NCBI GenBank assembly: GCA_031405995.1
Contig: JANOGJ010000260.1
Coordinates: 1 to 33,649, forward strand
Length of the DNA: 33,649 nucleotides
Direction of reading: 5' to 3'
Origin: Acidobacteriota bacterium
Lineage (GTDB): Bacteria; Acidobacteriota; Vicinamibacteria; Vicinamibacterales; SCN-69-37
The position numbers were made by a program, and so were the translations under genes. The notes below the pieces were generated by a model. The model saw only the letters and a program-made list of their open reading frames with translations. It was not told the origin of the DNA and ran no database searches. Shown here piece after piece: positions 17,235 through 29,935 of this stretch (the first letter of the stretch is position 1; each line of letters opens with the position of its first letter).

Positions 17235-17244
17235 CTGTCCTCCT

Positions 17245-18252
17245 TTACGAGACCGCGGTGACGGCGTTGCTGATCGTGTCGCTGATGTGGACCGGCACGC
17301 CCAGGAAGCTCGTGTCGATCTGCTTCAAGCCGGCTTCGATCCCCATGGCGTTCGAAGACTTGTTCATCCCCATCTTCCGCAGGTTCGCCCGGACTGTCCG
17401 GTTGCAGTAGAAAACGGGCTTGGACATGCCGAGTGACGGGATGCGCTCCAGTGCGTCCGACATGAGGTTGATGATGCAGGTCCCGGCCGTCAGGGCTTGG
17501 GTGCCGGTCTGCGCGGCGAGGGCCACGGTGTCGATGTTCGGGATGCGAACAGCGTACCGCCAATCCTTCACCATCAGGCCGGCATCCCATGCGTACCGAT
17601 CCGCGTAGGCGCGGTAGGGAGCCGGAGGCGTCTGCGCGTCGAAGGCGTCGATGAGATCGAGGTCCTCGTGGACGATCCCGGCCTTCGAGCCCTTCGGGAA
17701 GATCCCGGCGATGGTCTGGTCGCCCCAGCCGACGAGCCAGATTTCGGTCAGGTTGGTCGAGCCGCCAGCCGTCAGGACGTTCTGCGACGCCGCGCCCGAC
17801 AGCGACGGGTAACGGAGCCGCAGGCCCATGAACTGCTCCGGGTTGACGGTCGTGTCGCCGGCAAAGAGCGCCGTCAGGAACGTCTGGTTCATGCCTTCGA
17901 AACAGGGCATGGACTCGGACAGGCGGAATGCCGCCGTGTTTCCGTTCAGCGCGACGAGTTTCGCGTCCGGCTGCGAGCGCATTTCGAGCATCGCGGTCGC
18001 ATCCACGATCTGAGCGGTCGTCGACTTGGTAGGCTGGACGCCGCCGTACAGTTTGCGCCACGTCGCCGCCGGAAGGCCCGTGCGGATCGTGGTCTGGTTG
18101 CCCGTGGGGAGGTTGCCCTCGATCCACAGCATGTCATTCAAGGGCTCGTTGGTCTGGTTGAGAAGCTCCACGACTTGCGCCGTGTTGCCGTCCGGGTCCG
18201 TGCGCTTCGCCCAGTCAAGCAGGGTCAGCGCGGTTGCTCCGAGTGTTGCCAT
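17245..18252 (-). CDS. Major capsid protein (HK97 fold, N4 gp56/BPP-1/epsilon15 type, 335 aa)
   Basis: ATG 18252 has a GGGAGA RBS. It lies after the scaffold gene. N-terminus MATLGATALTLLDWAKRTDPDGN...NEPLNDMLWIEGNLPTG and size fit this capsid family by recollection. Confidence 0.88.
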   Translation of the reverse strand: MATLGATALTLLDWAKRTDPDGNTAQVVELLNQTNEPLNDMLWIEGNLPTGNQTTIRTGLPAATWRKLYGGVQPTKSTTAQIVDATAMLEMRSQPDAKLVALNGNTAAFRLSESMPCFEGMNQTFLTALFAGDTTVNPEQFMGLRLRYPSLSGAASQNVLTAGGSTNLTEIWLVGWGDQTIAGIFPKGSKAGIVHEDLDLIDAFDAQTPPAPYRAYADRYAWDAGLMVKDWRYAVRIPNIDTVALAAQTGTQALTAGTCIINLMSDALERIPSLGMSKPVFYCNRTVRANLRKMGMNKSSNAMGIEAGLKQIDTSFLGVPVHISDTISNAVTAVS

Positions 18253-18275
18253 TCAAGTTCTCCCGCGGCCTGCTA

Positions 18276-18911
18276 TCAGGCCACCTTGGGTGCGTTGGGT
18301 TTCTTGGCCTTGTCGTAAAACGACTGTGCGAATTCCGTAGACCCCGAGGCCCCTGTGCTTTGCGTTCCCGCAGACGAATCCTCTTTGATCGCGTGCCCGA
18401 CTTTGAGCGCGAATCGGGCAAACGCCAGGTAGGAGTCCGGCTGCTGTTTGTCGAGGAACGCTTTGAACTCAGTCCCCCCGAATGCTTCGACGGCGCGCTG
18501 CATGGTGGCGGCATTCGCCACGGCATCCTTGCCGCCTAAGACGGGGTCATTCGCGATCGCCAGTTGGATCTTCCCTGGGCGGGCTTTTTCGTCTTCCGCC
18601 ATCTGGGCTTCGTAGGCTGCGATCTCTCCCTTGACGAAGCCGGTCTGGAACGTGACGAGCGCCTGCGCTTGCTCTTGCGTCAGGTTGTTTGCTTTCGCCA
18701 GCTCCTTGAATCCTTCGACGGCCTTGGCGTTTAGCGTCACGCCGTCAGCCACGAAGTCGGTGTACGTTTCAGGCGCTCCCTGGGAGACCGCTACGGCTTT
18801 CGCCTGGTCTCCGGGAGTCACCGTTGGTACCGTGGGTGGAACGACCGTCGGCGTGGCCGCGACTACTGGCGGCGTGACGACGGGCGGGATTGCGACTGCG
18901 GCTTCACTCAT
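18276..18911 (-). CDS. Scaffolding protein (211 aa)
   Basis: Lies between the portal and capsid genes. Pro/Val/Thr-rich N-terminus followed by a helical, charged body. Confidence 0.65.
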   Translation of the reverse strand: MSEAAVAIPPVVTPPVVAATPTVVPPTVPTVTPGDQAKAVAVSQGAPETYTDFVADGVTLNAKAVEGFKELAKANNLTQEQAQALVTFQTGFVKGEIAAYEAQMAEDEKARPGKIQLAIANDPVLGGKDAVANAATMQRAVEAFGGTEFKAFLDKQQPDSYLAFARFALKVGHAIKEDSSAGTQSTGASGSTEFAQSFYDKAKKPNAPKVA

Positions 18912-19218
18912 CTTCGATCTCCTTGGGTGCGTTGGTCGGGTCGATGCGCTTGGCGATGATCTCTTTCTCTATGTCGTGCCAAACGCTCTCACCGCATTTC
19001 AGTGCCGCAGCGCGCAGACCCAGTGCCACGCTGCGCTTTCCCATGTCTGGGTTCGCCGCATACAGGCCGCACTCAAAGATCAGTTGCGCGACGAAGCGGA
19101 GGCCAGACGGACTCGTGAACACGTATTTCTTATCGAGATCCAACTGTTTCTTGCGCTCGGCTGCGGTGTCGCGCACGAACTTTCTGACGGTCTGGTTGGC
19201 GGCGTCGCCTTCGCTCAT
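18904..19218 (-). CDS. Hypothetical protein (104 aa)
   Basis: ATG overlaps the portal stop (ATGA), and its own stop overlaps the scaffold start. Composition is protein-like. Confidence 0.6.
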   Translation of the reverse strand: MSEGDAANQTVRKFVRDTAAERKKQLDLDKKYVFTSPSGLRFVAQLIFECGLYAANPDMGKRSVALGLRAAALKCGESVWHDIEKEIIAKRIDPTNAPKEIEDE

Positions 19219-20897
19219 CGCGCGCCTCCCGCGACCTGGCCGAGCCGCTCAAGAGGGTTCCCTGGGACCGGCTTCGTCTCCGCGCCGACCTGTAGGGCGA
19301 CGGCAGCGTCCTTCATCGGCTTCGCCATCGCAGCCATCTGCTCCATCTGAGCCTGGCGCTCGCGGTCCTGACGGATCGCAGCGATTGCGGCGGCGTCCCG
19401 TACAACCTTGGGAGGAGTCCCGACGCCCTTCGCGAATTCGGCAAGTGCGACGTCTTGGTCGTAGCCATCGAGGATCGACGCCGTGACCGGGGCCATCTGG
19501 AGCACGAACTCCGACGTGCGCTTGATCGAATCGACGGCGAGCAGCCGGAGCGCAGAAGACAGCGGCCCGATGAACTCGACCCCGAGATTGACCCCGGAGA
19601 GCTCCGGCGGAGGCGGCTCGATCTCACCGCGGCGCCACATGATCGCGAAGATGCGGTCGATCGCCGGCTTCAGTTTCTCCTGCTCCATGCGCTGAATCGT
19701 TGGGCCGACCTGCAAGAGGCGCTCTTCCTTCTTGGCCCGGATCTCCTCCGCTGTGACGCCGGAGCGGTCCTCATTTGCGATCATCAGGAACAGGTCGACG
19801 GCGAGTGCCTCGTTAATCATGTTCTCGATGTCGTGGAGTTCTTCGCGAGCCTCGACGAAGATGCGAGGATCGACGACGACGGCGGGTTCGATTTTGGCGT
19901 GCGGCCCCGAGGGATCGTAGTAGTTCGTGTCTCCCGGAAGAATCGTTGTCCCGCCGCCGTCGCGATGAGCAATGGGCGCGTTCATGGGCGGGCGCACCAG
20001 CATGTCCAATGCTTGCAGCCTGGCCTTTTCGAACTTCTGGAGCCCCATCGCGGCGCCCAAAGCGTCCGCAGCCGGTGGAATACCGTAGGAGTCCTCGCCG
20101 ACCTTGTCCCACCGCGAGCACATGACGGGGAACTCACGGAAGCCGGATTCGCGCAGGTACTTGTCTTCGTTCCCGGCCGTCTCGAACCAGCACGACGAGA
20201 ACGGCATGTTCTTTGTGTCCTGGTATCCGTAGGCTCTGCCGCTTCTGGGTTTGACACCGTGGACAATCTCGATCATCTTGTGCCGGCCCGAGGCGTTCTC
20301 GTTCAAGGCCCGCGTGGCTTGGCTCACATTCTCAATGCCGAACATAGCGATCAGGTTCTTCACGCTCATCGTGGTGCGGCGATACCAGGTGTCGACCACC
20401 CCACGCGCGTTGTTCGCGATCACGAACGATCCCACCGGAGCGACGTAGGCCCTGAACAGGTCCAGGTCGTCTTCCTCGATGTTCAAAGAGGACGTGCCGA
20501 ACGTGACGTCGTCGCCGTAGGTCTCGTGGCATCCGTCGTACAGATTCGTCTTTGCGATCTGTCGGAACATCCGAAGCTGCTGCCGGTAGAGCCAATCCCT
20601 GACCGGGGGGTGTTCGGCCAGATCCGGGTCTTCCGTCGTCAGCCCGAACCACGGCCGCGCCCGAGGAGTGAGGCCACCCATGAGTCCAGCGCGCGCCACG
20701 CGCACCGCCAAAATCGCACGGTTCCGCGCGTTCTTGCTGTTGCGCTTCGGCTTGTTGGCGTCGGACGACAGGAAGCGAGACCGGGACGGCTGGAAGTAGT
20801 CCGACAGGTCTCGATACCAGGCATCGAACCACGATCGGTCGCTTAACAGCGCCGCGTTCTCGCTCCTGGACTCTGAGACCGGGGACGGGTTCATCAC
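19215..20897 (-). CDS. Portal (head-tail connector) protein, 560 aa
   Basis: Size and position fit. N-terminal region ...RNRAILAVRVARAGLMGGLTPRARPWFGL is typical of podovirus connector proteins. GAAGGG lies upstream of the ATG. Confidence 0.88.
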   Translation of the reverse strand: MMNPSPVSESRSENAALLSDRSWFDAWYRDLSDYFQPSRSRFLSSDANKPKRNSKNARNRAILAVRVARAGLMGGLTPRARPWFGLTTEDPDLAEHPPVRDWLYRQQLRMFRQIAKTNLYDGCHETYGDDVTFGTSSLNIEEDDLDLFRAYVAPVGSFVIANNARGVVDTWYRRTTMSVKNLIAMFGIENVSQATRALNENASGRHKMIEIVHGVKPRSGRAYGYQDTKNMPFSSCWFETAGNEDKYLRESGFREFPVMCSRWDKVGEDSYGIPPAADALGAAMGLQKFEKARLQALDMLVRPPMNAPIAHRDGGGTTILPGDTNYYDPSGPHAKIEPAVVVDPRIFVEAREELHDIENMINEALAVDLFLMIANEDRSGVTAEEIRAKKEERLLQVGPTIQRMEQEKLKPAIDRIFAIMWRRGEIEPPPPELSGVNLGVEFIGPLSSALRLLAVDSIKRTSEFVLQMAPVTASILDGYDQDVALAEFAKGVGTPPKVVRDAAAIAAIRQDRERQAQMEQMAAMAKPMKDAAVALQVGAETKPVPGNPLERLGQVAGGAR

Positions 20898-21060
20898 GCA
20901 GCCCTTCGTGATAGGCTTTGAGCATGGCTGACGTAGACGCGGCTACGTTCGATCGCATGGTCGAGGCGCTTTACGCCATCAAGGTCCACGAGCGACAACT
21001 CTTGGCGGATGGGTACGGCATCTACCTGTGCCGCGGGCGCTGGATCTGGGCGAAACCTCA

Positions 21061-21255
21061 TCACGCCCCCAACAGCGTCGGGGCCGACAGCGACGATTCG
21101 CCGACGCCCGATCCGGTCAAGATGGTCGACCGGCGCCCATAGAGCGCCTTCTGCCGGCGGAGCTCGTTCTGGCGGGCCGCGAGCACGGCGTCATCCTGCT
21201 CGCGTGGGGCTGGGGCCGGCGGCGGAGGTGTCGGCGTTACCTTCGGCATGTGCAT
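21061..21255 (-). CDS. Small conserved phage protein (64 aa) with a Pro-rich N-terminus and a GRRSTILTG motif
   Basis: ATG overlaps the upstream stop (ATGA). The pattern (PPPP...RRQ..GR.STILTG..G) recurs in small ORFs next to podovirus portals, by recollection. Confidence 0.55.
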   Translation of the reverse strand: MHMPKVTPTPPPPAPAPREQDDAVLAARQNELRRQKALYGRRSTILTGSGVGESSLSAPTLLGA

Positions 21256-21545
21256 CAGTTCACCTGTACCCCTGGGGGCACGACGATGCGAGATTCCTGG
21301 TCGGACGGCTTCGGCTCGTGCCCGCGGGCTTCAACGCGCGCATTGAACCGGGCGGCCATCTCCGTATAGAACTTCTTGAACGCTTCCGGCCCGATCGCGT
21401 CGTACCCTGTCAGGACGGCCATCTTCTGTTCCGACGTCGCGTGATCGAGGATGTACTTCGTGAGGGTCTTCCCGGTCCACGACACACCGAGATCGATCGG
21501 CGGCACGATGACTGGGAGTATGACGGTCTTTCTACCGTTTTCCAT
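21255..21545 (-). CDS. Hypothetical protein (96 aa)
   Basis: ATG 21545 has GGAGG about 5 nt upstream. The listed start at 21557 is a non-ATG extension. Confidence 0.6.
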   Translation of the reverse strand: MENGRKTVILPVIVPPIDLGVSWTGKTLTKYILDHATSEQKMAVLTGYDAIGPEAFKKFYTEMAARFNARVEARGHEPKPSDQESRIVVPPGVQVN

Positions 21546-21590
21546 GACTACCTCCACTCCGGGGCTGGAGGTACCGAGCGGCGCCTCCGA

Positions 21591-21902
21591 TTAATCTTTG
21601 CGGTGGCGCAGACCGTGGCAGATGGCACAGAGCCAAATGACTTCAAGCGGTTTGCTGTAGTCCTCGTGGTGGCCGTGAGGTACACACTCGAAGCCGCATT
21701 GAGAGCATTCCTTTGGCTTGACCGTCTTGCCCTTGCGGACGGACTCCGTGAGAATCTTCCTCGCACGGCGCTTGTATGGATCGAACCGCTTCTGATAGGT
21801 GGGCGAGCTTCGGTAAGCCTTGTCGTAGGCTGCTCGTTGCTCCCGTCGCCGATACGACAGTTCGCGGTCAGCCGCACGCCGCTGTTCAGGAGTTCTAGCC
21901 AT
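21591..21902 (-). CDS. Small HNH-family endonuclease (103 aa) adjacent to the terminase
   Basis: ECSQCGFECVPHGHHEDYSKPLEVIWLCAICHGLRH is a CxxC...HH...CxxCH HNH/zinc-finger core. I chose ATG 21902; an alternative ATG at 21965 would overlap TerL by 35 nt. Confidence 0.8.
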   Translation of the reverse strand: MARTPEQRRAADRELSYRRREQRAAYDKAYRSSPTYQKRFDPYKRRARKILTESVRKGKTVKPKECSQCGFECVPHGHHEDYSKPLEVIWLCAICHGLRHRKD

Positions 21903-21930
21903 GTCGCTAGTGTAACAGGTGTATGCGGTG

Positions 21931-23259
21931 TCACAAATACTCCGGATCAAGTGGATTCCAGTCATTCAGCCGCTTATTGGGCGGAATGTAGAACGACGTC
22001 TGAGGCGCCGCGATGGGGAAGGCAAACGTGCAGGCCAAAGCGTCCGCGATGTCCGGCGACGCCATCCCACGGGCGCGCATGTCCTCTTTCGACTCCAACG
22101 AGAACTTCCCGCGGGTGTTGTGGTAGTCGTACTCGGTCGAGCACAGATCCGCCAAAAGCTCCTGGTTGTCCGGGATGATCCCCCCGTCCTTCAACCAGTC
22201 CCGCATGGCGACCCACATCTCCGCCCGCTTGTTCTGGAACCGCCGATCGACCGGAGACGACCCGAAGTCGACCGCATGGACAGGCCAGCGCATCTTCTTG
22301 ATCCCGTCGTACACCCCGGCATTCCCGCCGACGTCGACAAAGATCGCGTGCGGGTTGTACGTCTCGGCCGTCCGCACGATGCGGGAGATCACTTCCCCCG
22401 TGTCCAGCCCACGGTACGTGACCGGCTGCGACATGAAGATCCCCTGCCGCATCACAATCGCCGTCCGATCGTCCCCGTACCGCGCCGCGTCGACACCCAT
22501 AAGCCGAGGCGCGTGCTGGTACTGGTCGACACGGGCAAACCGCCGCGTCGCGTTCCGCGCAATGTCGAGCGCGATCAACGTCGAATCCGACCCGGCCGAG
22601 AAGTCGCACATCATCTCCGCCGCGAACTGCCGCGGCGTCATCGTCTTCCGAGCCAGGTCGATCTCATCCGGCGACAACACATTCGTCCGGTCCACGTCGT
22701 ACAGGCCGGCGAACCACAGCGGGTCGGCAACGGCGTGGTAATACATCTGCGACATCAGGTTGATCCCCTTGGCCGTCCCGATGAACCCGCACCACGCCTC
22801 GTGCGACGTCAGCATCGGCCGCACAATCTCGCCCCACACCTCGGGCTTCATGTCCTTGCACTCGTCCATCACAACGCCGTGAGGATGCATTCCTCTGAGG
22901 GCGTCAGGGTTGTCCGCACCGTACAAGCACACCCATGCACCGTTAGGCAGTCGCACCTGAAGCGCCGACTCCTGGTACTCGACCCCAGGAACGTTCCGCG
23001 TCGCCGACTTCAAGTAGGCCCACACCACATCCCGCGCCTGCTTCAAAAACGGCGAGATGAACAGGTAACGCCCGTTCGGACCCTGCACAGAATCGTCGTG
23101 CTCCATCGCCTCGATCGCCAGTTGATGCGCGGCGAGATACGACTTCCCACTCCCACGGTGCGCCACGATCACCCAGAACCGATGCGCGGCAATCCCGCGA
23201 TGGACGTCCAACGCCCACGGACGAGGGGTGTAGTCGATCGAGGCCAGGATCTCAGGCAA
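21931..23259 (-). CDS. terL: Terminase large subunit (442 aa)
   Basis: Walker A VIVAHRGSGKSY, Walker B HGVVMDE, nuclease-domain motif MGVDAARYGDDRTAIV. The first start after the in-frame TAA (23263-23265) is TTG 23259. The next Met lies beyond Walker A. Confidence 0.92.
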   Translation of the reverse strand: MPEILASIDYTPRPWALDVHRGIAAHRFWVIVAHRGSGKSYLAAHQLAIEAMEHDDSVQGPNGRYLFISPFLKQARDVVWAYLKSATRNVPGVEYQESALQVRLPNGAWVCLYGADNPDALRGMHPHGVVMDECKDMKPEVWGEIVRPMLTSHEAWCGFIGTAKGINLMSQMYYHAVADPLWFAGLYDVDRTNVLSPDEIDLARKTMTPRQFAAEMMCDFSAGSDSTLIALDIARNATRRFARVDQYQHAPRLMGVDAARYGDDRTAIVMRQGIFMSQPVTYRGLDTGEVISRIVRTAETYNPHAIFVDVGGNAGVYDGIKKMRWPVHAVDFGSSPVDRRFQNKRAEMWVAMRDWLKDGGIIPDNQELLADLCSTEYDYHNTRGKFSLESKEDMRARGMASPDIADALACTFAFPIAAPQTSFYIPPNKRLNDWNPLDPEYL

Positions 23260-23310
23260 TGGTTATGGTCCTATAAGAATTGAAGGCTGAGAAAAAGGCT
23301 TGGAAAGATG

Positions 23311-23338
23311 AAAAAACTGTACGTGGGGGTTCCCCGCG
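23311..23338 (-). terminator. Hairpin plus T-run between TerS and TerL (weak intrinsic-terminator or attenuator candidate)
   Basis: A 7-bp stem (23322-23328 pairs with 23332-23338, one G-U pair, 3-nt loop). On the minus strand it is followed by TACAG-TTTTTT. The T-run is 5 nt from the stem, so this is not canonical. Confidence 0.3.
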
Positions 23339-23411
23339 GGACCCGGCGCCATCGCGAATCTGCCCCCGGCCCTCCGGCCGCAAAGGGGACCCACCATGCG
23401 AGGTGCGCGCG

Positions 23412-24014
23412 TCACGCCCCCGACCCATCGTCCCCGTTCTCGCTACGCGCAACGGTATCGGGCTGGCCGTGGGCATCCGCCATCCATTCGGCACGGGCCG
23501 CGGCTCGTCGCTGCTCTGCGGTCATGGCCACGCTCGGATGGGCCTTTAGGCGCCCGACGCGGTGCAGCGTCCCGGCTTCCATAACATCAACTGCCATAAC
23601 GGCAGGCTCAGAAGCCGCGTCATCTCCATCCTTTTCAGTTGACGGAATATACGTTATCGGACCTTGTTGCAAACAAAGGACTTCCGGCTCGCTTGTCGCA
23701 ACTAGCGCGGCTTTCGCCTCTCGGAGCATCCCTGCGCGGGTGGGGATGGGGGACTGGACTACGATGGTCACGGAGCCGGTTAGCTCGTGTTCTTGTTTAG
23801 GCTTTGGGAGCGCGTACTCAAGTTTGGTACGTAGAGCTAAGAGCCTAACGCCAGCGTGCCGTCCAAGGCTCTCTCCGTCCACTAGGCGGTCCAGAACTGC
23901 GAAGTCGGACGGTCGCATAACTATTTTCGCGGTGTCCCCCGCTCCCCCGGATGGAGCGGGCGTCTCCGGCGTCTGAGTCGGATGTCCCACGAGCCCACTA
24001 CTACAACACTCCAT
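23412..24014 (-). CDS. Putative terminase small subunit (up to 200 aa; start uncertain, alternative ATG at 23918)
   Basis: Immediately upstream of TerL on the same strand. The segment LRTKLEYALPKPKQEHELTGSV resembles the ...GKPKQ..E.TG stretch of several TerS families. No strong RBS at either ATG. Confidence 0.5.
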   Translation of the reverse strand: MECCSSGLVGHPTQTPETPAPSGGAGDTAKIVMRPSDFAVLDRLVDGESLGRHAGVRLLALRTKLEYALPKPKQEHELTGSVTIVVQSPIPTRAGMLREAKAALVATSEPEVLCLQQGPITYIPSTEKDGDDAASEPAVMAVDVMEAGTLHRVGRLKAHPSVAMTAEQRRAAARAEWMADAHGQPDTVARSENGDDGSGA

Positions 24015-24019
24015 CACAC

Positions 24020-24037
24020 TGTGTCAACTTTGACACA
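24020..24037. promoter_or_regulatory. Perfect palindrome TGTGTCAA-CT-TTGACACA carrying TTGACA on both strands
   Basis: Read directly from the sequence. It sits at the 5' edge of the TerS ORF, at the start of the 408-nt divergent intergenic region. Confidence 0.3.
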
Positions 24038-24390
24038 CCTTGGGCAATTAGATTGGTGGGGATTGGAGGCGCGCGTAATGCCTTCCATCCGGCAGGTCCG
24101 GTGCCCGGTTCCGGGTCTGCGGTCATCCTTCAAGCGTGTCGCCGCGAGCGGCCCCGAAGGGGCGCAGAGCGAGTGGGCGTCACGCGCCTTGGCGCGATCT
24201 CCCATCAAATCAGAATGCGTAAGAGCGCGCGCTTTTCAAGCGCTCTTACATCATTAGGCGGTACGGCGATATCGGACGGTAGGCCGGTTTTGGGCTATAC
24301 CGCCCGTGTACTCTTCTTAGCGCCCTTGGCGGTATCGACTTTGTAAGAATTCTGCGGCCGGGGAAACGTACGGTATGAGGGCGTAAACAC

Positions 24391-24419
24391 TTGCACTCAG
24401 TTCTAGCAGTTGATAACAT
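24391..24419 (+). promoter_or_regulatory. Sigma70-like promoter candidate TTGCAC-N17-(TGa)TAACAT; the predicted TSS falls near the ATG of the HNH paralog (leaderless)
   Basis: -35 at 24391-24396, extended -10 TG at 24411-24412, -10 at 24414-24419. ATG 24426 is 7 nt downstream and has no SD. Confidence 0.25.
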
Positions 24420-24425
24420 CGCGGC

Positions 24426-24680
24426 ATGGACACAAACGACCCGTACAAGCGCAGAGCCCACGCGGCTGTTTGGAAGGCATTGAAGTCTGGGGCCTTGATT
24501 CGCCCCGAGAAATGCTCGGCGTGCTGTTGGCCGTGCAAGCCTGACGGGCATCATGCCGATTATTCGAAACCGCTCGAAGTTGAATGGCTTTGCAGAATTT
24601 GCCATTGCAAGCGCAGGCCGAGCATAAAGGGTTATCACTACAAGCCATTCAAACAAAGCAAGAGAATGATTCGTACCTAG
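24426..24680 (+). CDS. HNH-like paralog (84 aa)
   Basis: DPYKRRAH...[36 protein letters not shown] aligns by eye with the 21591-21902 protein (DPYKRRAR...[25 protein letters not shown]). The last His of that motif is Arg here. Confidence 0.72.
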   Translation: [84 protein letters not shown]

Positions 24681-24766
24681 CATTTTCCCCGTGCATAACC
24701 GTTGTGCTAACGGTAGATTCCCCTTGCACAACATTCCCGCCCTACACGGGCATGAGGAGAGAGTCG

Positions 24767-25075
24767 ATGGAACAAATCAACGTTACAAGCGAAGTCTTAA
24801 GAGCCGAGGTCGTGACCCTCCGCGCGCAGCTTGCGGAAGCGGTGAAGCATTTGCGCTCGCTCGTTGAAGTGTCAGCGCTTGACGGGGCTCTGCTTGAAGC
24901 GCGGGAGCTTCGGGCCGAAAACACCGCGCTGCGGGAGGCGCTTGACGCTTGCTACGCCGCGCTCCTCGACCTATCGGACGATCCCCACAATGACGGTAAG
25001 GAATGGAACGAAGGCGGATCGGTGTATGAGGCGTGTAAGCGCGCAGGGGCCGCCCTGGCGAAGGGGGGGGAGTGA
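24767..25075 (+). CDS. Coiled-coil protein (102 aa)
   Basis: ATG 24767 is preceded by GGAGAGAG. The listed start at 24584 is an alternative-codon extension overlapping the HNH gene. Leu/Ala/Glu heptad-like sequence. Confidence 0.55.
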   Translation: MEQINVTSEVLRAEVVTLRAQLAEAVKHLRSLVEVSALDGALLEARELRAENTALREALDACYAALLDLSDDPHNDGKEWNEGGSVYEACKRAGAALAKGGE

Positions 25076-25224
25076 TGCTAGTACCAAAGGATTTCCCCGT
25101 TAAGGTGTTGACCGCGCGTACTTACGGCAAGGCGAAAGATCCCGTCACTTGTGACATGCGTAACCCTTCCAGCTTCCACCTAGCCTTATGGCGCGGAGAC
25201 GGAGTAGACCATGCGAATCAATAA
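25075..25224 (+). CDS. Possible 49-aa ORF (below the track cut-off)
   Basis: ATG overlaps the upstream TGA by 1 nt (TGATG). Translation MLVPKDFPVKVLTARTYGKAKDPVTCDMRNPSSFHLALWRGDGVDHANQ. Start/stop coupling is the only support. Confidence 0.25.
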   Translation: MLVPKDFPVKVLTARTYGKAKDPVTCDMRNPSSFHLALWRGDGVDHANQ

Positions 25225-25435
25225 AGGTTCCGACGCGCATTTGCGCCACCTATGCAATACCTACAACTACGCGACTAACCCTAGTATCGGACGAACGGAG
25301 CACGAGCATAAGCGGTGTTCGCAGCTGGCCCGCTCGTGTCGGCGGATTCTCTCCTGGTACTTCCCGCAGCGACGGTACGGTGAGGGAGAGTCCGGTCGCC
25401 TGTACCCCTTCTCTGGCGAACGTGTAACCCGTTAA
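25211..25435 (+). CDS. Possible 74-aa ORF
   Basis: ATG 25211 has GGAG 6 nt upstream. By hand count, third-position G+C is higher in this frame than in the overlapping 25188 frame. No recognisable motif. Confidence 0.3.
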   Translation: MRINKGSDAHLRHLCNTYNYATNPSIGRTEHEHKRCSQLARSCRRILSWYFPQRRYGEGESGRLYPFSGERVTR

Positions 25436-25462
25436 CCCGCCGCGATGCGGCATGAGGTTTCT

Positions 25463-25753
25463 ATGGCAGAGATCACACTAGCGACAGTCAAGAGTTTTAT
25501 TCGCAAGAATCAAGGCCGCCTGTACGTACGCACGCTTAGCGACTTTGACCCGATGACAGACGCTTGCCAACGATGCGAAGACCGATCCTTTCGGCCCGCG
25601 GAGCCCGGAGTTAACTCGAATTCTCTAGGTATTGCCGGCGCGTGGTTCGTTGGCCGGTCCCGGGACTATTTGTCCCCTATCGCGGAGGAAGGGTTCTCGG
25701 GATTCCGCGTTTACAATTCGTGCGGATCTTTTGATTTAGCTATCAGGAAGTAA
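25463..25753 (+). CDS. Hypothetical protein (96 aa)
   Basis: ATG 25463 is preceded by GAGG. MAEITLATVKSFIRKNQGRLYV...GAWFVGRSRDYLSPIAEEGFSGFRVYNSCGSFDLAIRK looks globular. Confidence 0.6.
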   Translation: MAEITLATVKSFIRKNQGRLYVRTLSDFDPMTDACQRCEDRSFRPAEPGVNSNSLGIAGAWFVGRSRDYLSPIAEEGFSGFRVYNSCGSFDLAIRK

Positions 25754-25760
25754 GCGCGAA

Positions 25761-25797
25761 ACGGGGCGTTCTGCCCCGTCCGGCAGTAAGTCTGCCG
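25761..25797 (+). terminator. Two adjacent GC-rich hairpins after the 96-aa gene (no U-tract)
   Basis: ACGGGGC-GTTCT-GCCCCGT (25761-25779) and CGGCAG-TAAGT-CTGCCG (25781-25797). A third hairpin (ACCCG..CGGGT) precedes the RBS of the next gene. Confidence 0.3.
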
Positions 25798-25845
25798 CTG
25801 ACGAGCGCAAGTAACCCGGCCCGCTTCGGGTCACGAGGTGAGCGT

Positions 25846-26196
25846 ATGGACTGGTTTGCCTATGAACCGAGTTTCCGCGAACGGATGGACGAAGCGCAGG
25901 ACGCTGCAAGGCGACGGATCGAGGACAATGCCTACATGGCGGTACGGATCGACCGCAAGCGCCGGAAGCGGACCATGAAGGTAGATCAGGCCGCTGCCCT
26001 CCTCGAGATGTCAACGGCACGGGTTAGGCTGCTCTGCCAGCAAGGCCGCCTGGTCGGGGCAATGCGAGCCGAAAAGGGTAAAGGCAGACCTTGGGTCATC
26101 CCCGAGCCCGTGACGATGACCGAGGGTTCGCGCGGACCTCAATTAAAACGAGCAGATTCCGTTACGATGCAAAGGCGACCAGATATGCCTTTCTAG
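25846..26196 (+). CDS. HTH DNA-binding protein (excisionase/MerR-type HTH_17-like), 116 aa; alternative start at Met44
   Basis: GAGGTGAGCGT-ATG RBS. MKVDQAAALLEMSTARVRLLCQQGRLVGAMRAEKGKGRPWVIP fits the HTH_17 pattern (helix-turn-helix, then ...W.IP). Confidence 0.68.
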   Translation: MDWFAYEPSFRERMDEAQDAARRRIEDNAYMAVRIDRKRRKRTMKVDQAAALLEMSTARVRLLCQQGRLVGAMRAEKGKGRPWVIPEPVTMTEGSRGPQLKRADSVTMQRRPDMPF

Positions 26197-26210
26197 GCCG
26201 AGGTTAACCA

Positions 26211-26393
26211 ATGCCCAGCATTCGCATTCCGGGCCGAATTCCGTCCGAGCTGTGGGTAGCTATCTGCGTCGCGGCCGACCGAGTCGGGCTGCATCCGATT
26301 GACTGGATTCGCCAGGCAATCGCGCGAGCCCTACGAGAGTCCGAAGCCGCGGGACGACCGAGTCAGGCGCCGAACGATCCAGATTACCGTTGA
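26211..26393 (+). CDS. Ribbon-helix-helix (CopG/Arc-like) protein, 60 aa
   Basis: IRIPGRIPSELWVAICVAADRVGLHPIDWIRQAIARAL reads as strand-helix-helix with the usual spacing. Confidence 0.55.
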   Translation: MPSIRIPGRIPSELWVAICVAADRVGLHPIDWIRQAIARALRESEAAGRPSQAPNDPDYR

Positions 26394-26398
26394 GGCGG

Positions 26399-27862
26399 TC
26401 ATTCCGCTTCTGCTGGCGCATTCTGCGTCAGCCACAACCTGACGAGCTTCCCGTGATCCTTGCCGCGCTTGACCTTGCCTTGGCTCGTCATCGTCGCCAG
26501 GGCCTTTTCGAGTCCGCGCCGACCGAACCCGGCCGTTACGGCCTGGTCGAAAACGTCCTTCCTGAGAGCTCCATCGTCACCTGAACGAGCCAGGTGAGTC
26601 CAGATCGCCATGTCGCACCCGGCTTTCGGCGCCGTTGCCTCGACCCGAGCCCACGGGTCCTCAGAATCACCACCCTTGACCCATTTCGTCGTCAGGAATC
26701 CAGGCAGAGCCTCGCCGGATCGGTTCTTTCGGCACTCGAACGTGCGCTCGTCCGTGTTCCGGTCGCCGTAGATCACCCAACCCGTGTCGGTGATGTCCAT
26801 TTTTGACCCGGCGCCGCGGATGCGGTGGGCTACCTCTTGTTTTTCGTCGTCCTTCCCCGGCTTCCGCATGTGGTCAAGGATCACGAACGCGCACCCGTAG
26901 TCGATGCAGAGAGGCATCAGGGCCTCGTCCAGAAAGGCCGACATCTCGGAGTTGTCGTTCTCCGATCGGGTGTGGAAGCGAGCCATCGAGTCGAGAATCA
27001 CCAGGACAGGCCGCTGAACATCCATCACGCGGCGAAGTGCTGCTAGGCCGCGCGGCTGATCGAGCTTGATACGATTGCGTGTCAGGTAGCGGATCGGCCG
27101 GCGTTCTGTCGGGTCAAGCCCGCGGCCCCGCACCATCCGGTAGAATCGGCTCTCGACGACGCGACTCGGGTTCTCTTCGTCGACGTAGAGCACCGGCCCG
27201 GTCTTGATGACCGGGATCATCCCCATCCAGTCGATCCCGCTCGTAACAGCCAGGACCAAGTCGTCGACAATCAGGCTCTTCCCCGTTCCCCACTCCCCGC
27301 CGAAGATGACCCGATCGTCCTCAGCGAGCCAGCCTTCCGCGATCCACGGGATCGGAGATATGGGTGTGTTGCAGGCAGCCCAAATGTCGATCTCACGCAG
27401 CGCGGGCTCGTCCTGCCGCTCCAACCGCTTCGACAGACTGACCAGCACGGCCCGGACGGCCTCAGAGCCTTCCGTCTGGGCGAGCGTGGCAGCGGCTGTC
27501 GCCCCAGTGATCGCGTCCCTGCGGGCTTCCAACTCACGCAGGACCCCAGCGTAGTGGGTGATGTTGCTGGCCGTCCAAGCGCCAGCGTGGAGCTCGGCCA
27601 GGTATTTGGCGCCACCGGCCCCTTTCAGTTGGTCCGTGTCGCACAGATGCCGATGCAACAGGATCAGGTCACAGGTCCCGTGCTTGACCAGTGTCTGGGC
27701 GATGCCGCGGAAGATGAACCGATGCCGCTCGGAATAGAAAGCCGTGACCGGGAGCGCCGCCACCTCGCCAACGCGGTGTGGCTCCAGCAATAGGGAACCG
27801 ATGACGGCACGCTCAGTGAACAGATCGTGCGGCAGAGCGTCAGGCAACGCTTGGGCTTCCAA
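26399..27862 (-). CDS. Replicative helicase: DnaB N-terminal-like domain fused to a RepA/AAA_25-type RecA-fold ATPase (487 aa)
   Basis: LPHDLFTERAVIGSLLLEP is a DnaB-N signature. Walker A is GGEWGTGKS and Walker B is VLVILDSM. The start is TTG 27862 with GGGGG 6-7 nt upstream; no in-frame ATG precedes the DnaB-N motif. Confidence 0.88.
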   Translation of the reverse strand: MEAQALPDALPHDLFTERAVIGSLLLEPHRVGEVAALPVTAFYSERHRFIFRGIAQTLVKHGTCDLILLHRHLCDTDQLKGAGGAKYLAELHAGAWTASNITHYAGVLRELEARRDAITGATAAATLAQTEGSEAVRAVLVSLSKRLERQDEPALREIDIWAACNTPISPIPWIAEGWLAEDDRVIFGGEWGTGKSLIVDDLVLAVTSGIDWMGMIPVIKTGPVLYVDEENPSRVVESRFYRMVRGRGLDPTERRPIRYLTRNRIKLDQPRGLAALRRVMDVQRPVLVILDSMARFHTRSENDNSEMSAFLDEALMPLCIDYGCAFVILDHMRKPGKDDEKQEVAHRIRGAGSKMDITDTGWVIYGDRNTDERTFECRKNRSGEALPGFLTTKWVKGGDSEDPWARVEATAPKAGCDMAIWTHLARSGDDGALRKDVFDQAVTAGFGRRGLEKALATMTSQGKVKRGKDHGKLVRLWLTQNAPAEAE

Positions 27863-27889
27863 TGTTCGACCCCCGGCGGTAGCGCGACG

Positions 27890-28039
27890 CTACAACAACT
27901 TTTTTAGTTTGGGAATGGCCTTGCGGATTCTCTTGCGATAGTCGCAGGGAGGCTTTTGTCCGTTCTCGATCCAACGTGCCAGGGCTAACGCCGTGCCGGC
28001 GGTTCGTGGAAGACGGGCCTCGACGTCTTTCTTGGTCAC
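27890..28039 (-). CDS. Possible 49-aa basic protein (below the track cut-off)
   Basis: GTG 28039 overlaps the upstream TGA (GTGA) and is preceded by GGGGGAGGG. Translation (M)TKKDVEARLPRTAGTALALARWIENGQKPPCDYRKRIRKAIPKLKKLL. Confidence 0.45.
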   Translation of the reverse strand: MTKKDVEARLPRTAGTALALARWIENGQKPPCDYRKRIRKAIPKLKKLL

Positions 28040-28344
28040 AAGCGGACCCTCCCCCGTATCGCATCAACCGTCGTCGTCAGCCCGGTTATCTGCACGATCC
28101 AGCGCAAGCTGCCAGGGCCAGTCTCGTCGGAAGCGAACCACTTGATCGCGTCGTCTCGGTCCATCGTCGCCCGGCTCTTGCTCCATTGCCACCTGTGGAC
28201 CACCGTCGCATCGCGAAATGCCTGCTCCAACACCGCGAACCACAGATTGCGCTCGCATTCACACTCGCACGACGGTCGTAGCAGCGCGTCGTCAGGGTCG
28301 CCCATGTCGAGATCGAGTGTCTCTTCAAATGCTTGGTTCGCCAT
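28036..28344 (-). CDS. Hypothetical protein (102 aa)
   Basis: ATG 28344 has GGAG 9 nt upstream. The C-terminal AIKWFASDETGPGSLRWIVQITGLTTTVDAIRGRV resembles a recurrent small phage protein pattern (W....SF.W.C..LG.D...R). Confidence 0.6.
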   Translation of the reverse strand: MANQAFEETLDLDMGDPDDALLRPSCECECERNLWFAVLEQAFRDATVVHRWQWSKSRATMDRDDAIKWFASDETGPGSLRWIVQITGLTTTVDAIRGRVRL

Positions 28345-28750
28345 TGGGCGGCTCCATGCTCTCGATGGCAACCTCGCATCGAGGGTTCCCGTACATCTTG
28401 ACAGCGTGCAGACACACGACCCTGGAATCGTCGGCCCAAATACCGGCCTGGTTGCAGCCGTCGAGCACGGCCTTGACCATGTTGTCGAGATCGGGTTTCG
28501 TCGCGGGGAGAATGACGCGCTTGGGCGCGCTTTTTGGCCTTGGCATGTAGAACAGCGCCGTCACCTTGAGCGGCCCGTCCATTGGCGGCCGGCCGCGGTG
28601 CGCCGTTGATGCAGACATGGCGACCAAGTTTTCGTAAGCCGCAGTCTTGTCGTCGGTGTAGGCCCGAACGAAGTCCCCACGCCGAGCGATTCGCGGGCGA
28701 CCTTTCCCCCGCGGTGCGCCTGGAACTGTGAACGAGACGGTGTCCCTCAC
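28325..28750 (-). CDS. rusA: RusA-family Holliday junction resolvase (141 aa)
   Basis: VSFTVPGAPRGKGRPR...YTDDKTAAYE...LKVTALFYMPRPKS...KPDLDNMVKAVLDGCNQAGIWADDSRV is the RusA signature, including the catalytic Asp cluster. GTG 28750 overlaps the upstream TGA (GTGA) behind GAGGGGGGAGAA. The listed 215-aa form is an out-of-context extension. Confidence 0.85.
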   Translation of the reverse strand: MRDTVSFTVPGAPRGKGRPRIARRGDFVRAYTDDKTAAYENLVAMSASTAHRGRPPMDGPLKVTALFYMPRPKSAPKRVILPATKPDLDNMVKAVLDGCNQAGIWADDSRVVCLHAVKMYGNPRCEVAIESMEPPNGEPSI

Positions 28751-29019
28751 TTCTCCCCCCTCGCCACCTCTTCCACCGTCACCTTGACACGCACTGGGCG
28801 CGGCATACGCCAACAGTGCGGCTCGATTCGGAGATCCTTGCGGCCCTTGATGTACCCGAAGTGCTTCTCGGCCCATTCTCGCGCCGCCTTGCGTGTTAGA
28901 AACGTCTTGAACTGGAGGGCGTCCCAAAGCATGAGGTGTCGCGACGGGTTCCTCCTTGATCGCGAATCCCACAGTACGGCCCAGCGATGGTAAGTGTGCT
29001 TAGCTTTTTGTGGTTCCAT
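28747..29019 (-). CDS. Hypothetical protein (90 aa)
   Basis: ATG 29019 is preceded by GGGGGGA. Its stop is coupled to the RusA start. Confidence 0.6.
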   Translation of the reverse strand: MEPQKAKHTYHRWAVLWDSRSRRNPSRHLMLWDALQFKTFLTRKAAREWAEKHFGYIKGRKDLRIEPHCWRMPRPVRVKVTVEEVARGEK

Positions 29020-29935
29020 CTACGTCCCCCCTAGCAACTGAGCGCGAGAGCTGCTCCGCGAGGGAGTCGCGGTCGGCTTCGGCGGCATCCGCTCGGTCTG
29101 TCGCAACTAGCGCAACACCATGCGCCTTCGCCGCGTTTGCCATTTCGTCGAGTCGATGCTTGTCGCATTCGATCCGCGCCTTCCGCTCGGCCTCGATTTG
29201 CGCTTCCATCTGCGCGACGACGTTCGCCACACCGCTGCGCGTCTCAGCCGCTTTCACTTCACCCTTTAGAAACTCGACCTCGGCGCGGAGGCGCACGATC
29301 TCGTTGTTCGCTTCGTCAAGCACCGCTTGGCCCTCAAGCGAGATCACAGGCTTCGCCTCGTACGCCGCGATGACGGCGGCGCGGGCTTTGGCTCGTCGCT
29401 GTGTGCCCTGCGCCGACGTGTCCCCGGTGTGCCAGGAACGTTCGCACATGAGCGCGTAATCCAACGCCTTCTCGAACTTCCCACTCCCCGGCGCGGGCTT
29501 GGGTGTGGCTGCGCTTCGGAATGACGCGGCGACCTCCGGGCTCAGTTGAACTACAGGCATCGCGTAGGGGTCGCCAATCGCCTCGGGGTTGAGCACCACC
29601 GATCCGGTAAGGCGCATGTGCTCATGTTGCTCCGGTGCTAATAGCCCGCCCGATGGTGGCGTGGGCGAGGGCGCGGGAACACACTCGGCGCATGGTACAG
29701 CGCCGGGAGGCGAGTGAACGCACCCACCGTCTCGCGTGGGCACGCTCGGGGCCGCAGAAGAATGCAGAACGTGGTACTCCCAATCGACACCACATTCGGG
29801 ACAGTACCCGAAGCGACTTGGCTTGAATCGACTTGGCCCCGGCTCGGTGAGGGTGAGGAGCATTTCTTCAGCCTTACCGGAGTCGCCCCACGCCTCTGAT
29901 AACCACCGCGCCGCCTCCTGCCTACTTGTGGTCAT
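29000..29935 (-). CDS. Hypothetical protein (311 aa): shared 31-aa leader, CxxC...CxxC zinc-ribbon-like segment, C-terminal coiled coil
   Basis: ATG 29935 overlaps the end of the 70-aa gene. MTTSRQEAARWLSEAWGDSGKAEEMLLTLTE, then CPEC...CAEC, then a long heptad region. The listed 371-aa form overlaps the upstream gene. Confidence 0.6.
   Translation of the reverse strand: MTTSRQEAARWLSEAWGDSGKAEEMLLTLTEPGPSRFKPSRFGYCPECGVDWEYHVLHSSAAPSVPTRDGGCVHSPPGAVPCAECVPAPSPTPPSGGLLAPEQHEHMRLTGSVVLNPEAIGDPYAMPVVQLSPEVAASFRSAATPKPAPGSGKFEKALDYALMCERSWHTGDTSAQGTQRRAKARAAVIAAYEAKPVISLEGQAVLDEANNEIVRLRAEVEFLKGEVKAAETRSGVANVVAQMEAQIEAERKARIECDKHRLDEMANAAKAHGVALVATDRADAAEADRDSLAEQLSRSVARGDVDGTTKS

What the first reader, a model, noticed from the sequence alone, without database searches (positions are those of the whole stretch)
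24426..26393. Inverted, partly low-GC accessory block (small ORFs plus HTH plus RHH): candidate anti-defence or regulatory island
Eight plus-strand ORFs are wedged between two long minus-strand operons. Hand counts of individual 60-nt lines in 24540-25760 give about 45-52% G+C, against about 62% in the capsid and HTH genes. I did not compute this for the whole block.

The block contains an HNH paralog and four small proteins without recognisable motifs (102, 49, 74 and 96 aa). These are translationally coupled or have good RBSs. They are followed by hairpins, an HTH_17-type protein and an RHH protein.

Small unknown genes followed by a small HTH or RHH regulator is the architecture of acr-aca (anti-CRISPR) and other anti-defence operons (established pattern). 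The alternative is a lysis-lysogeny or early/late switch.

This is inference only. No Acr family is recognisable by eye.
Basis: inference. Interest (0 to 1): 0.6.

Follow-up and report, generated by a model that had tools for sequence, protein, structure and literature searches.

The report
Hammerhead ribozyme splitting a phage cassette
The "hairpins" in this reverse-oriented phage gene block are a self-cutting hammerhead RNA, sitting between a set of changeable small genes and a conserved pair of DNA-binding regulators; this is a known kind of element in a newly recognised, recurring position, and nothing here shows an anti-defence role.

Summary
The plus-strand block is real. It lies between the terminase genes and a DnaB-like helicase of a podovirus-like phage contig and is the lowest-GC stretch of that contig.

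- The motif occurs once in the 3.9-Mb assembly and never in ten simulated genomes.
- It scores 60.5 bits with a model built from other phage hammerheads.
- It recurs at the same place in two independent relatives (L184, L188). There it also starts at the stop codon of an unrelated upstream gene and ends 34-37 nt before the same regulator gene.

The downstream genes form a conserved pair: an Xis/Cox/BldC-like winged HTH (HTH_17) and a small RHH protein. The layout [terminase <-][-> small ORFs, HTH, RHH][<- helicase] recurs in relatives, but the upstream small ORFs are not shared between them.

One of those ORFs, the 96-aa protein, belongs to a large unnamed phage family with no match among solved folds.

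The "variable cargo plus conserved regulator" layout is therefore confirmed. An anti-defence function is untested and has no positive support. Most likely the ribozyme uncouples the cargo mRNA from the regulator mRNA.

The parts
24018..24425 (.). Divergent intergenic region between TerS (minus) and the cassette (plus). It presumably holds the promoters. It contains a 10-bp-arm hairpin at 24219-24249 and GGCGGTA repeats.
   Evidence: No ORF with support. Inverted and direct repeats listed. The consensus sigma-70 scan found nothing here. Function inferred only.
24426..24680 (+). 84-aa HNH endonuclease, paralog of the HNH gene downstream of TerL
   Evidence: phrog_2340, E 4e-20. 55% identity to 21591-21965, E 1e-23. 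No Shine-Dalgarno site seen.
24767..25075 (+). 102-aa coiled-coil-like orphan protein
   Evidence: GGAGAGAG Shine-Dalgarno site. Best codon score of the block, 0.39. Only itself among 5.8 billion proteins. No phage match.
25075..25224 (+). 49-aa ORF, start overlaps the previous stop (TGATG); coding status unverified
   Evidence: Sequence. Frame 0 is the best of six but weak, 0.09. No family hit.
25211..25435 (+). 74-aa ORF; coding status unverified
   Evidence: Frame 0 is the best of six but weak, 0.08. No homolog in phage records. No family hit.
25463..25753 (+). 96-aa protein of a large, unnamed, conserved phage family
   Evidence: 125 homolog clusters, E down to 3e-40. The alignment fixes the start at 25463. 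AF2 pLDDT 90.5. No PDB fold match; one viral match. Found in early regions next to RecT, DUF3799, RadC and AAA_24 genes.
25754..25808 (+). Type II hammerhead ribozyme. Stem II GCGC/GCGC (open), GAAA, stem III ACGGGGC/GCCCCGU, cleavage triplet GUC, stem I CGGCAG/CUGCCG, CUGACGA. Predicted cut is 3' of C25780.
   Evidence: Rfam RF02276, 29.4 bits, E 0.003. My own descriptor hits once in 3.88 Mb and 0 times in 10 simulated genomes. The MFE fold is the three-way junction. Model R1 gives 60.5 bits. Orthologous hammerheads lie in L184 (39.7 bits, above the Rfam cut-off) and L188.
25809..25845 (+). Leader of the regulator mRNA: small GC hairpin (about 25819-25831), then Shine-Dalgarno GAGGTGA (25835-25841)
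   Evidence: Sequence. An equivalent small hairpin plus Shine-Dalgarno site precedes the HTH gene in all seven loci.
25846..26196 (+). 116-aa winged-HTH (HTH_17) protein with an N-terminal long helix and a conserved C-terminal ...PF tail. It is the conserved anchor of the cassette.
   Evidence: 102 remote relatives, about 35 of them full length. 31 of 35 match PF12728. AF2 pLDDT 82.6. The domain superposes on Pukovnik Xis, BldC, the P2 DNA-binding protein and HK022 Xis.
26211..26393 (+). 60-aa ribbon-helix-helix-like protein, conserved partner of the HTH gene
   Evidence: Homologs directly downstream of the HTH gene in L183 (40% identity, E 1e-9), L184 and L186. The profile hits VapB26 at E 2.4e-4.

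Best explanation
The block is a reverse-oriented "cargo plus regulator" cassette that is a conserved landmark of this phage group. It sits between the packaging genes and the replication genes.

Its left part is a changeable set of small genes. Here these are an HNH paralog, an orphan coiled-coil protein, two doubtful mini-ORFs and a member of a large phage family of unknown function. Its right part is a conserved pair of small DNA-binding proteins: an Xis/Cox/BldC-like winged HTH and an RHH.

A type II hammerhead ribozyme lies exactly at the junction. It begins at the base after the stop codon of the last cargo gene and ends 37 nt before the HTH start codon.

**Inferred mechanism**
1. The cassette is transcribed as one RNA from the divergent region next to TerS.
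2. The ribozyme cuts it after C25780.
3. The cargo mRNA then ends in the stem III hairpin with a cyclic phosphate.
4. The regulator mRNA begins with a 5'-OH, the stem I hairpin, a second small hairpin and an exposed ribosome-binding site.
5. Stability and translation of the regulators thereby become independent of whichever cargo lies upstream.

The regulators probably act on the divergent promoter region. They would either autoregulate the cassette or time the packaging/late genes.

**Shown:** the motif, its non-random occurrence, its recurrence at the same junction, the conserved gene order and the variable cargo.

**Inferred:** self-cleavage in vivo, co-transcription, the insulating effect and the regulators' targets.
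For: **The hammerhead motif is not chance**
- All core nucleotides and three perfect helices are present.
- It is the only hit of a permissive descriptor in the 3.88-Mb assembly, with 0 hits in 10 simulated genomes.
- It is the only hammerhead of any topology in the window.
- The isolated 63-nt RNA folds into the three-way junction as its MFE and centroid structure.

**It belongs to a phage subclass**
- The pattern search found more than 116 viral contigs and 39 genomes with hammerheads of this build. 92% of the raw matches have a stem I of 6 bp or more.
- The window aligns without gaps to a subclass with a 4-bp stem II and a 7-bp stem I. It shares features that were not in my search pattern, T34 and A36.
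- Stems I and II covary across that subclass.
- Model R1, built without the window, scores it 60.5 bits. The next best hit in 94 kb scores 13 bits.

**It recurs at the same junction**
- L184 carries an Rfam hit of 39.7 bits (cut-off 37). L188 scores 51.6 bits with R1.
- In both, the hammerhead starts at the stop codon of a non-homologous upstream ORF and ends 34-37 nt before the HTH-family gene.
- The stem sequences differ between the three loci but still pair.

**Gene order and regulators**
- The gene order is conserved in L184, L186, L188 and L189.
- The cargo ORFs are not shared between loci. The HTH gene is shared by all, and the RHH by at least four.
- HTH and RHH assignments rest.

**Literature**
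- Prophage hammerheads flank genes of varying identity and are proposed to process polycistronic transcripts (PMC3088659, PMC6765202).
Against: - The Rfam score of the window copy is below the gathering cut-off (29.4 against 37). Three hits of similar score in related genomes were false positives inside housekeeping genes.
- There is no complementarity between loop I and the 3' tail, so the pseudoknot that most type II hammerheads use for fast cleavage is missing. One closing pair of stem I is a U-U mismatch.
- In a 181-nt context, the 5' strand of stem II and part of GAAA pair instead with upstream coding sequence (25717-25723).
- Four of the seven related loci have no hammerhead at this junction, so it is dispensable for the cassette.
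- No promoter was detected by the consensus scan, so co-transcription is assumed.
- Part of the R1 score is by construction. The training set was collected with the window's own stem III sequence.
Confidence: 0.7

Rival explanations
1. acr-aca-type anti-defence operon. The variable small genes are inhibitors of host defence systems, and the HTH and/or RHH is the Aca-like repressor that shuts the operon's strong early promoter.
For: - The layout fits. Variable, mostly orphan small ORFs lie upstream of a conserved small DNA-binding pair at a fixed genome position.
- Composition and codon usage are atypical.
- Hammerheads have been seen directly upstream of the anti-restriction gene ardA in Legionella (PMC3088659).
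Against: - No cargo protein matches anything annotated as anti-defence in PHROGs, Pfam, NCBIfam or PADLOC.
- The only cargo gene with relatives (96 aa) is broadly conserved, at 43-73% identity, across many phages. It sits in replication/recombination neighbourhoods, which is unlike typical Acrs.
- One cargo gene is an HNH nuclease paralog tied to the terminase region.
- No Acr/Aca HMM library or Acr predictor was available, so this reading is untested, not refuted.
Confidence: 0.13
2. Developmental switch module. The HTH (Cox/Xis-like) and RHH (Arc/Mnt-like) proteins are the phage's early/late or lysis/lysogeny regulators. They act on the divergent TerS promoter region, and the upstream small genes are ordinary early genes. 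Any hammerhead only trims the message.
For: - The pair holds a conserved, core-like position between the replication and packaging modules.
- The HTH domain superposes best on Xis proteins, BldC and the phage P2 DNA-binding protein.
- The RHH resembles repressor/antitoxin RHH domains.
- The cassette is divergent from the packaging operon across a 408-nt repeat-rich region.
Against: - No integrase, CI/Cro-like repressor or attachment site was seen in the 33.6-kb contig.
- Fold-search E-values are not significant (0.14-0.5), although probabilities are 0.96-0.99 over about 45 residues.
- No operator sites have been shown.
- This reading is largely compatible with the best explanation. It differs only in what the regulators control.
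Confidence: 0.35
3. The hammerhead-like sequence is inactive. It is a decayed or chance motif that now serves only as two hairpins, for example as a terminator or an RNase site between two transcription units.
For: - The Rfam score is below the cut-off.
- There is no tertiary pseudoknot.
- Stem I has a U-U mismatch at its top.
- There is a competing upstream pairing.
- Relatives without a hammerhead carry a strong GC hairpin at the same site.
Against: - Every invariant core nucleotide and every core-adjacent pair is intact.
- Chance expectation is below 0.1 per genome.
- The same motif, with different but still pairing stems, sits at the same junction in L184 and L188. That argues for selection on the ribozyme fold, not merely on hairpins.
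Confidence: 0.1

Closest known systems
Type II hammerhead ribozymes of bacteria and prophages (Rfam RF02276; Perreault et al. 2011, PMC3088659)
   Same: - Same core (CUGANGA, GAAA, GUC) and same permutation: stems I and III closed, stem II open.
- Intergenic position between phage genes of varying identity.
- Presumed role in cutting polycistronic RNA.
   Different: - No loop I/3'-tail pseudoknot. It belongs to a compact subclass with a 4-bp stem II and a 7-bp stem I carrying a 3-nt loop.
- The window copy scores below the Rfam cut-off.
- It is tied to a specific junction, stop codon | hammerhead | hairpin-SD | HTH_17-family gene, and this junction recurs in 3 of 7 related loci.
acr-aca (anti-CRISPR plus anti-CRISPR-associated regulator) operons
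   Same: Variable small ORFs followed by a conserved small DNA-binding regulator. The composition is atypical.
   Different: - No recognised Acr or Aca family member.
- Two regulators (wHTH plus RHH) instead of one.
- A ribozyme lies between cargo and regulator.
- One cargo gene is a broadly conserved phage family and another is an HNH nuclease.
Small Xis/Cox/BldC-type winged-helix proteins (HTH_17; e.g. mycobacteriophage Pukovnik Xis 4j2n, phage P2 DNA-binding protein 4lhf, BldC 6ama)
   Same: The roughly 45-residue DNA-binding domain superposes at 1.8-2.7 A rmsd. The gene is phage-borne and small.
   Different: - It has an extra N-terminal 20-residue helix with a conserved SFxERM..DAA motif, and a conserved C-terminal GxRGP...PF tail.
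- No integrase is nearby.
- Sequence similarity is limited to the HTH_17 profile.
RiboJ-type synthetic ribozyme insulators (Lou et al. 2012, recalled from memory, not checked here)
   Same: A hammerhead followed by a small hairpin just upstream of the ribosome-binding site. This removes the variable upstream RNA context from the downstream gene.
   Different: This one is natural, type II rather than a satellite-RNA type III ribozyme, and its function is untested.

Membership tests
Hammerhead ribozyme, type II (RF02276) | Invariant core: CUGANGA, GAAA, and an NUH cleavage triplet with A15.1-U16.1 | tested here: met
   CUGACGA, GAAA, GUC, and an A-U pair closing stem III.
Hammerhead ribozyme, type II (RF02276) | Three helices around the core, with stems I and III hairpin-closed and stem II open | tested here: met
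   Stem I is 6 bp, stem II 4 bp, stem III 7-8 bp. This is the MFE and centroid fold of the 63-nt RNA.
Hammerhead ribozyme, type II (RF02276) | Score at or above Rfam's gathering cut-off (37 bits) | tested here: not met
   The window scores 29.4 bits, E 0.003. The orthologous copy in L184 scores 39.7 bits. The subclass model R1 gives the window 60.5 bits.
Hammerhead ribozyme, type II (RF02276) | [quoted passage not shown] | tested here: not met
   Loop UAAGU and tail AAGUAAC are not complementary (sequence). About 20 viral-contig members of the same compact subclass also lack it.
Hammerhead ribozyme, type II (RF02276) | Conservation with compensatory changes in relatives | tested here: met
   L184 and L188 carry the motif at the same junction with different, still pairing stems. 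Covariation in the subclass is shown; stem III there was fixed by my search pattern.
Hammerhead ribozyme, type II (RF02276) | Site-specific self-cleavage | not testable with these tools
No biochemistry.
acr-aca anti-defence operon | At least one cargo protein belonging to, or shown to act as, an anti-defence family | not testable with these tools
   No Acr/dbAPIS library was available. PHROGs, Pfam, NCBIfam and PADLOC give nothing suggestive.
acr-aca anti-defence operon | Conserved small DNA-binding regulator downstream of variable small ORFs | tested here: met
   The HTH_17-family gene is conserved in all six further loci and the RHH in at least three of them. The cargo is not shared.
acr-aca anti-defence operon | Regulator belongs to a described Aca family | not tested
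   No Aca profiles were available.
HTH_17 (PF12728) winged-helix DNA-binding proteins | Profile match above the curated cut-off and an Xis/MerR-like wHTH fold | tested here: inconclusive
   The window protein scores 24.9 bits against a cut-off of 27. 31 of 35 family members match, with best E 1.3e-10. The fold is nearest Xis/BldC/P2 proteins with probability 0.96-0.99 but E 0.2-0.5.
Ribbon-helix-helix (CopG/Arc/MetJ-like) proteins | N-terminal beta-strand plus two helices; profile similarity to known RHH proteins | tested here: inconclusive
   No Pfam hit for the window protein. The 4-sequence profile hits VapB26 (5x3t) at E 2.4e-4 over strand, helix A and helix B. One homolog hits HicB at E 7e-4.
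CI/Cro-type (HTH_XRE) switch | HTH_3/XRE-type repressor pair at divergent promoters | tested here: not met
   No HTH_3/XRE hit for either protein.

The most novel reading that the evidence does not exclude
The hammerhead, the small hairpin and the ribosome-binding site form a natural "insulator" that belongs to the conserved HTH-RHH module. Its 5' edge, which coincides with the stop codon of whatever gene lies upstream, marks the boundary at which cargo genes are exchanged between phages.

Translation termination of the last cargo gene would gate ribozyme folding. Two observations make this possible. The stop codon abuts stem II. An upstream coding segment can also pair with stem II and GAAA. 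So the regulators' mRNA would be released in step with translation of the cargo.

The four relatives without the ribozyme would be natural controls for what bacterial and phage hammerheads are for.
Probability: 0.2. Interest if true: 0.65.

Novelty: new member of a known kind. Interest (0 to 1): 0.42.

Why it matters
Hammerhead ribozymes are common in phages, but their biological role is still described as elusive (PMC6765202). This locus offers an unusually clean case.
- The ribozyme sits at one defined junction, between changeable cargo and a conserved regulator pair.
- The junction geometry (stop codon, ribozyme, hairpin, ribosome-binding site) is the same in three loci.
- Close relatives have the same gene order without the ribozyme.

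That makes a specific hypothesis, insulation of regulator expression from upstream context, directly testable.

The work also defines two unnamed protein families:
- a 96-aa phage early protein with a confidently predicted fold that matches no solved structure;
- a wHTH-RHH pair that marks a conserved inverted cassette in a group of podovirus-like phages.

For the original question, it shows that "anti-defence island" is so far only an analogy of layout.

Tried and rejected
- **DNA search of phage records** with 23400-26500: no match.
- **tblastn of the 102-aa, 116-aa, 60-aa and 74-aa proteins against phage records:** no match.
- **Relatives found through TerL.** The closest (L009, 69% identity) shares the structural module. 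The contig starts only 954 nt upstream of its TerS, and that stretch does not match the block, so it was uninformative. More distant TerL relatives have a different architecture.
- **TerL in genome contigs:** nothing.
- **HTH gene in viral contigs,** by single sequence and by alignment: nothing.
- **Link between the hammerhead and the 96-aa family:** rejected. None of nine other loci with that gene has a hammerhead.
- **Link between this hammerhead subclass and a particular downstream gene in viral contigs:** rejected. 68 downstream ORFs fall into 58 clusters, and none resembles the window's proteins.
- **Rfam scan of the whole window and the genome search on the window's own genome:** both missed the hammerhead because of stricter filters. 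Absence in those runs therefore means little.
- **Three Rfam-level hits of 29-33 bits in related genomes:** false positives inside housekeeping ORFs.
- **A second hammerhead of any topology in the window:** none.
- **PDB sequence search with the HTH and RHH as single sequences:** nothing.
- **PADLOC:** only a marginal mad1 hit, E 0.003.
- **Terminal repeat of the contig:** none.
Full report
**Setting**

The window is a whole 33.6-kb contig of a metagenome-assembled genome. It is phage-like.
- On the minus strand lie tail, capsid and portal genes, then TerL (21931-23259) and a TerS-like gene (23412-24017).
- Further right, also on the minus strand, lie a DnaB/AAA_25 helicase (26399-27862), RusA and other early genes.
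- A second public assembly (Logan, 43.5 kb) is 100% identical over 15846-29871.
- No tRNA, terminal repeat or integrase was seen.

**The observation**

Seven plus-strand ORFs occupy 24426-26393, between the two minus-strand operons.

The block is the lowest-GC part of the contig. The 24426-25753 stretch is 56.5% and the whole block 58.2%, against 62.6% for the contig.

Third-position GC is 57-69%, against 69-88% in the long genes. Codon scores are low, although TerS and some early genes score just as low.

The individual ORFs:
- The 84-aa protein is an HNH endonuclease and a paralog of the HNH gene downstream of TerL.
- The 102-aa protein is a true orphan.
- The 49-aa and 74-aa ORFs have ribosome-binding sites and the best frame score of six. 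They have no relatives, so they remain unverified.
- The 96-aa protein is anything but an orphan. It has 125 homolog clusters of about 100 aa with strongly conserved motifs, and the alignment fixes its start at 25463. Its AlphaFold model is confident (pLDDT 90.5). It matches no solved structure and only one viral prediction, a Flavobacterium phage homolog. Its relatives lie in phage early regions beside RecT, DUF3799, RadC, AAA_24 or a Q-like antiterminator, often as the first gene of a short divergent unit.

**The "hairpins" are a hammerhead ribozyme**

An Rfam scan of 23900-26500 gave Hammerhead_II at 25754-25816, with 29.4 bits and E 0.003. That is below the 37-bit cut-off.

Read directly, the sequence is GCGC|GAAA|CGGGGC-guucu-GCCCCG|UC^|CGGCAG-uaagu-CUGCCG|CUGACGA|GCGC. 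Every invariant core nucleotide is present, as is the A15.1-U16.1 pair, a GUC cleavage triplet and three perfect helices, with stem II open.

Evidence that this is not chance:
- A permissive descriptor of my own finds this site and nothing else in the 3.88-Mb assembly on both strands. It finds nothing in ten simulated genomes of the same dinucleotide make-up.
- No other hammerhead of any topology is in the window.
- The 63-nt RNA folds into exactly this junction as its minimum-energy and centroid structure.

The covariance score alone would not have been enough. Three hits of 29-33 bits in related genomes lie inside housekeeping genes and lack the core.

**Relation to other phage hammerheads**

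A pattern keeping the core and this stem III found more than 116 viral contigs and 39 genomes. Of the 158 raw matches, 92% have a stem I of 6 bp or more, although the pattern did not ask for pairing.

About twenty of them form a compact subclass with a 4-bp stem II, a 7-bp stem I closed by a U-G pair, a 3-nt loop and no pseudoknot. The window's copy aligns to them without gaps. It shares conserved positions that were not in my pattern, and its only deviation is a U-U in place of the U-G pair. Stems I and II covary strongly in that set; those sequences were selected for pairing, so one search is the fairer figure.

The genes downstream of these ribozymes are highly diverse: 68 ORFs fall into 58 clusters. 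They start 14-46 nt after the ribozyme, as they do here. This agrees with Perreault et al. 2011 (PMC3088659).

**The conserved module**

A full HMMER search found about 100 remote relatives of the 116-aa protein, about 35 of them full length. They share N-terminal (SFxERM..DAA), HTH and C-terminal (GxRGP...PF) motifs. Of those 35, 31 match HTH_17. The model (pLDDT 82.6) has a winged-helix domain closest to Pukovnik Xis, BldC, the phage P2 DNA-binding protein and HK022 Xis. The probabilities are high (0.96-0.99) but the E-values are not significant.

Contexts of six relatives:

| Locus | Layout | Hammerhead before the HTH gene |
|---|---|---|
| L189 | [portal, TerL, TerS <-][-> 86 aa, 76 aa, HTH, 45 aa][<- DnaB/AAA_25 helicase]; the window's layout exactly | no |
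| L184 | same inverted cassette, with 4 upstream small ORFs | yes |
| L186 | same inverted cassette, with 2 upstream small ORFs | no |
| L188 | same inverted cassette, with 8 upstream small ORFs | yes |
| L183 | 942-nt fragment | no |
| L185 | 650-nt fragment | no |

An RHH homolog follows the HTH gene in L183, L184 and L186. The RHH profile hits the RHH antitoxin VapB26 at E 2.4e-4. None of the window's five cargo ORFs has a homolog in the other cassettes.

**The ribozyme recurs at the same junction**

- In L184, Rfam reports Hammerhead_II above its cut-off (39.7 bits, E 1.2e-5). It lies exactly in the 90-nt gap before the HTH gene.
- In L188 the gap holds a hammerhead with the common extra U after CUGAUGA.
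- Model R1 was built from the viral-contig subclass plus L184, without the window or L188. It scores the window at 60.5 bits and L188 at 51.6 bits. The next best hit in 94 kb scores 13 bits.
- R1 confirms that L183, L185, L186 and L189 have no hammerhead.
- In all three positive loci the ribozyme begins at, or one base inside, the stop codon of a different upstream gene. It ends 34-37 nt before the ATG, and a small hairpin and a Shine-Dalgarno site lie in between.
- The stems differ between the three loci but still pair.

**Interpretation**

The most economical reading is a conserved regulator module (hammerhead, leader, wHTH, RHH) attached to a variable cargo region.

Cleavage would leave the cargo RNA ending in the stem III hairpin. 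The regulator RNA would start with a 5'-OH and the stem I hairpin. This uncouples their stability and translation, as proposed in general for prophage hammerheads (PMC3088659, PMC6765202).

Weak points:
- There is no loop I/tail pseudoknot.
- An upstream coding segment can compete with stem II in a longer fold.
- Four of the seven loci lack the ribozyme.

**Anti-defence?**

However, there is no positive evidence. No anti-defence profiles were available, and PHROGs, Pfam, NCBIfam and PADLOC give nothing suggestive. The one cargo gene with relatives is broadly conserved.

A role of the Cox/Xis-like HTH and the RHH as timing or switch regulators, acting on the repeat-rich 408-nt divergent region, is at least as likely.

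**Verdict**

The definite result is a type II hammerhead. It is a new member of a known kind, in a recurring and well-defined junction of a conserved phage cassette.

Earlier notes of this scan show that phage hammerheads are frequent finds, so interest is moderate.

Noticed in passing
window 25463-25753; alignment A1: The 96-aa protein belongs to a large unnamed phage family: at least 125 clusters, with invariant T11, F18, F34, D39, G65, W67, N91 and F96. It has a confident AlphaFold model (pLDDT 90.5), no significant PDB fold match and no Pfam or PHROG family.
   Followed up: partly
L183:140-175, L185:109-150, L186:5899-5940, L189:4929-4960: Relatives without the hammerhead carry, directly after the upstream stop codon, a C-rich start (CCCCTCCCGG, CCCTCCCCGC, CACCCGCCCCCGG) and a strong GC hairpin. 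L185 and L186 share a conserved element of about 45 nt. This may be a functional substitute for the ribozyme, or a terminator.
   Followed up: no
window 25819-25831 and the equivalent sites in L183-L189: In all seven loci a small 4-5-bp hairpin with a 3-4-nt loop sits just upstream of the Shine-Dalgarno site of the HTH gene. The stem sequences differ between loci.
   Followed up: partly
window 25717-25723 against 25754-25760: In a 181-nt fold, the coding sequence UUCGUGC of the 96-aa gene pairs with GCGCGAA (the 5' strand of stem II plus part of the core). This competes with the active ribozyme fold, and ribosomes translating the upstream gene would remove the competitor.
   Followed up: no
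window 25748-25753, 25787-25792, 25809-25814: The hexamer AAGTAA/GTAAGT occurs three times around the ribozyme: at the stop codon, in loop I and in the 3' tail. It is same-sense, not complementary, so it cannot form the usual pseudoknot.
   Followed up: no
viral contig loci L022-L137: 96 of the 158 pattern-matched type II hammerheads score a stem II of zero when A9 is paired directly. In the printed rows these carry one extra U between A9 and stem II (CUGAnGA-U-GGC). The variant is frequent, and naive descriptors miss it.
   Followed up: no
L009:1417-2667: The closest structural relative (TerL 69% identical) has two extra ORFs (104 and 243 aa) inserted between TerS and TerL. In the window only a 152-nt spacer lies there.
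   Followed up: no
window 29871: The independent 43.5-kb Logan contig is identical to the window over 15846-29871. That contig extends about 13.7 kb beyond the window's left end.
   Followed up: no
whole window; G000: The hammerhead is reported by Rfam only when a short stretch is given. It is lost in the whole-window scan and in the genome search on the window's own genome. Negative ribozyme scans over long stretches are therefore unreliable.
   Followed up: yes
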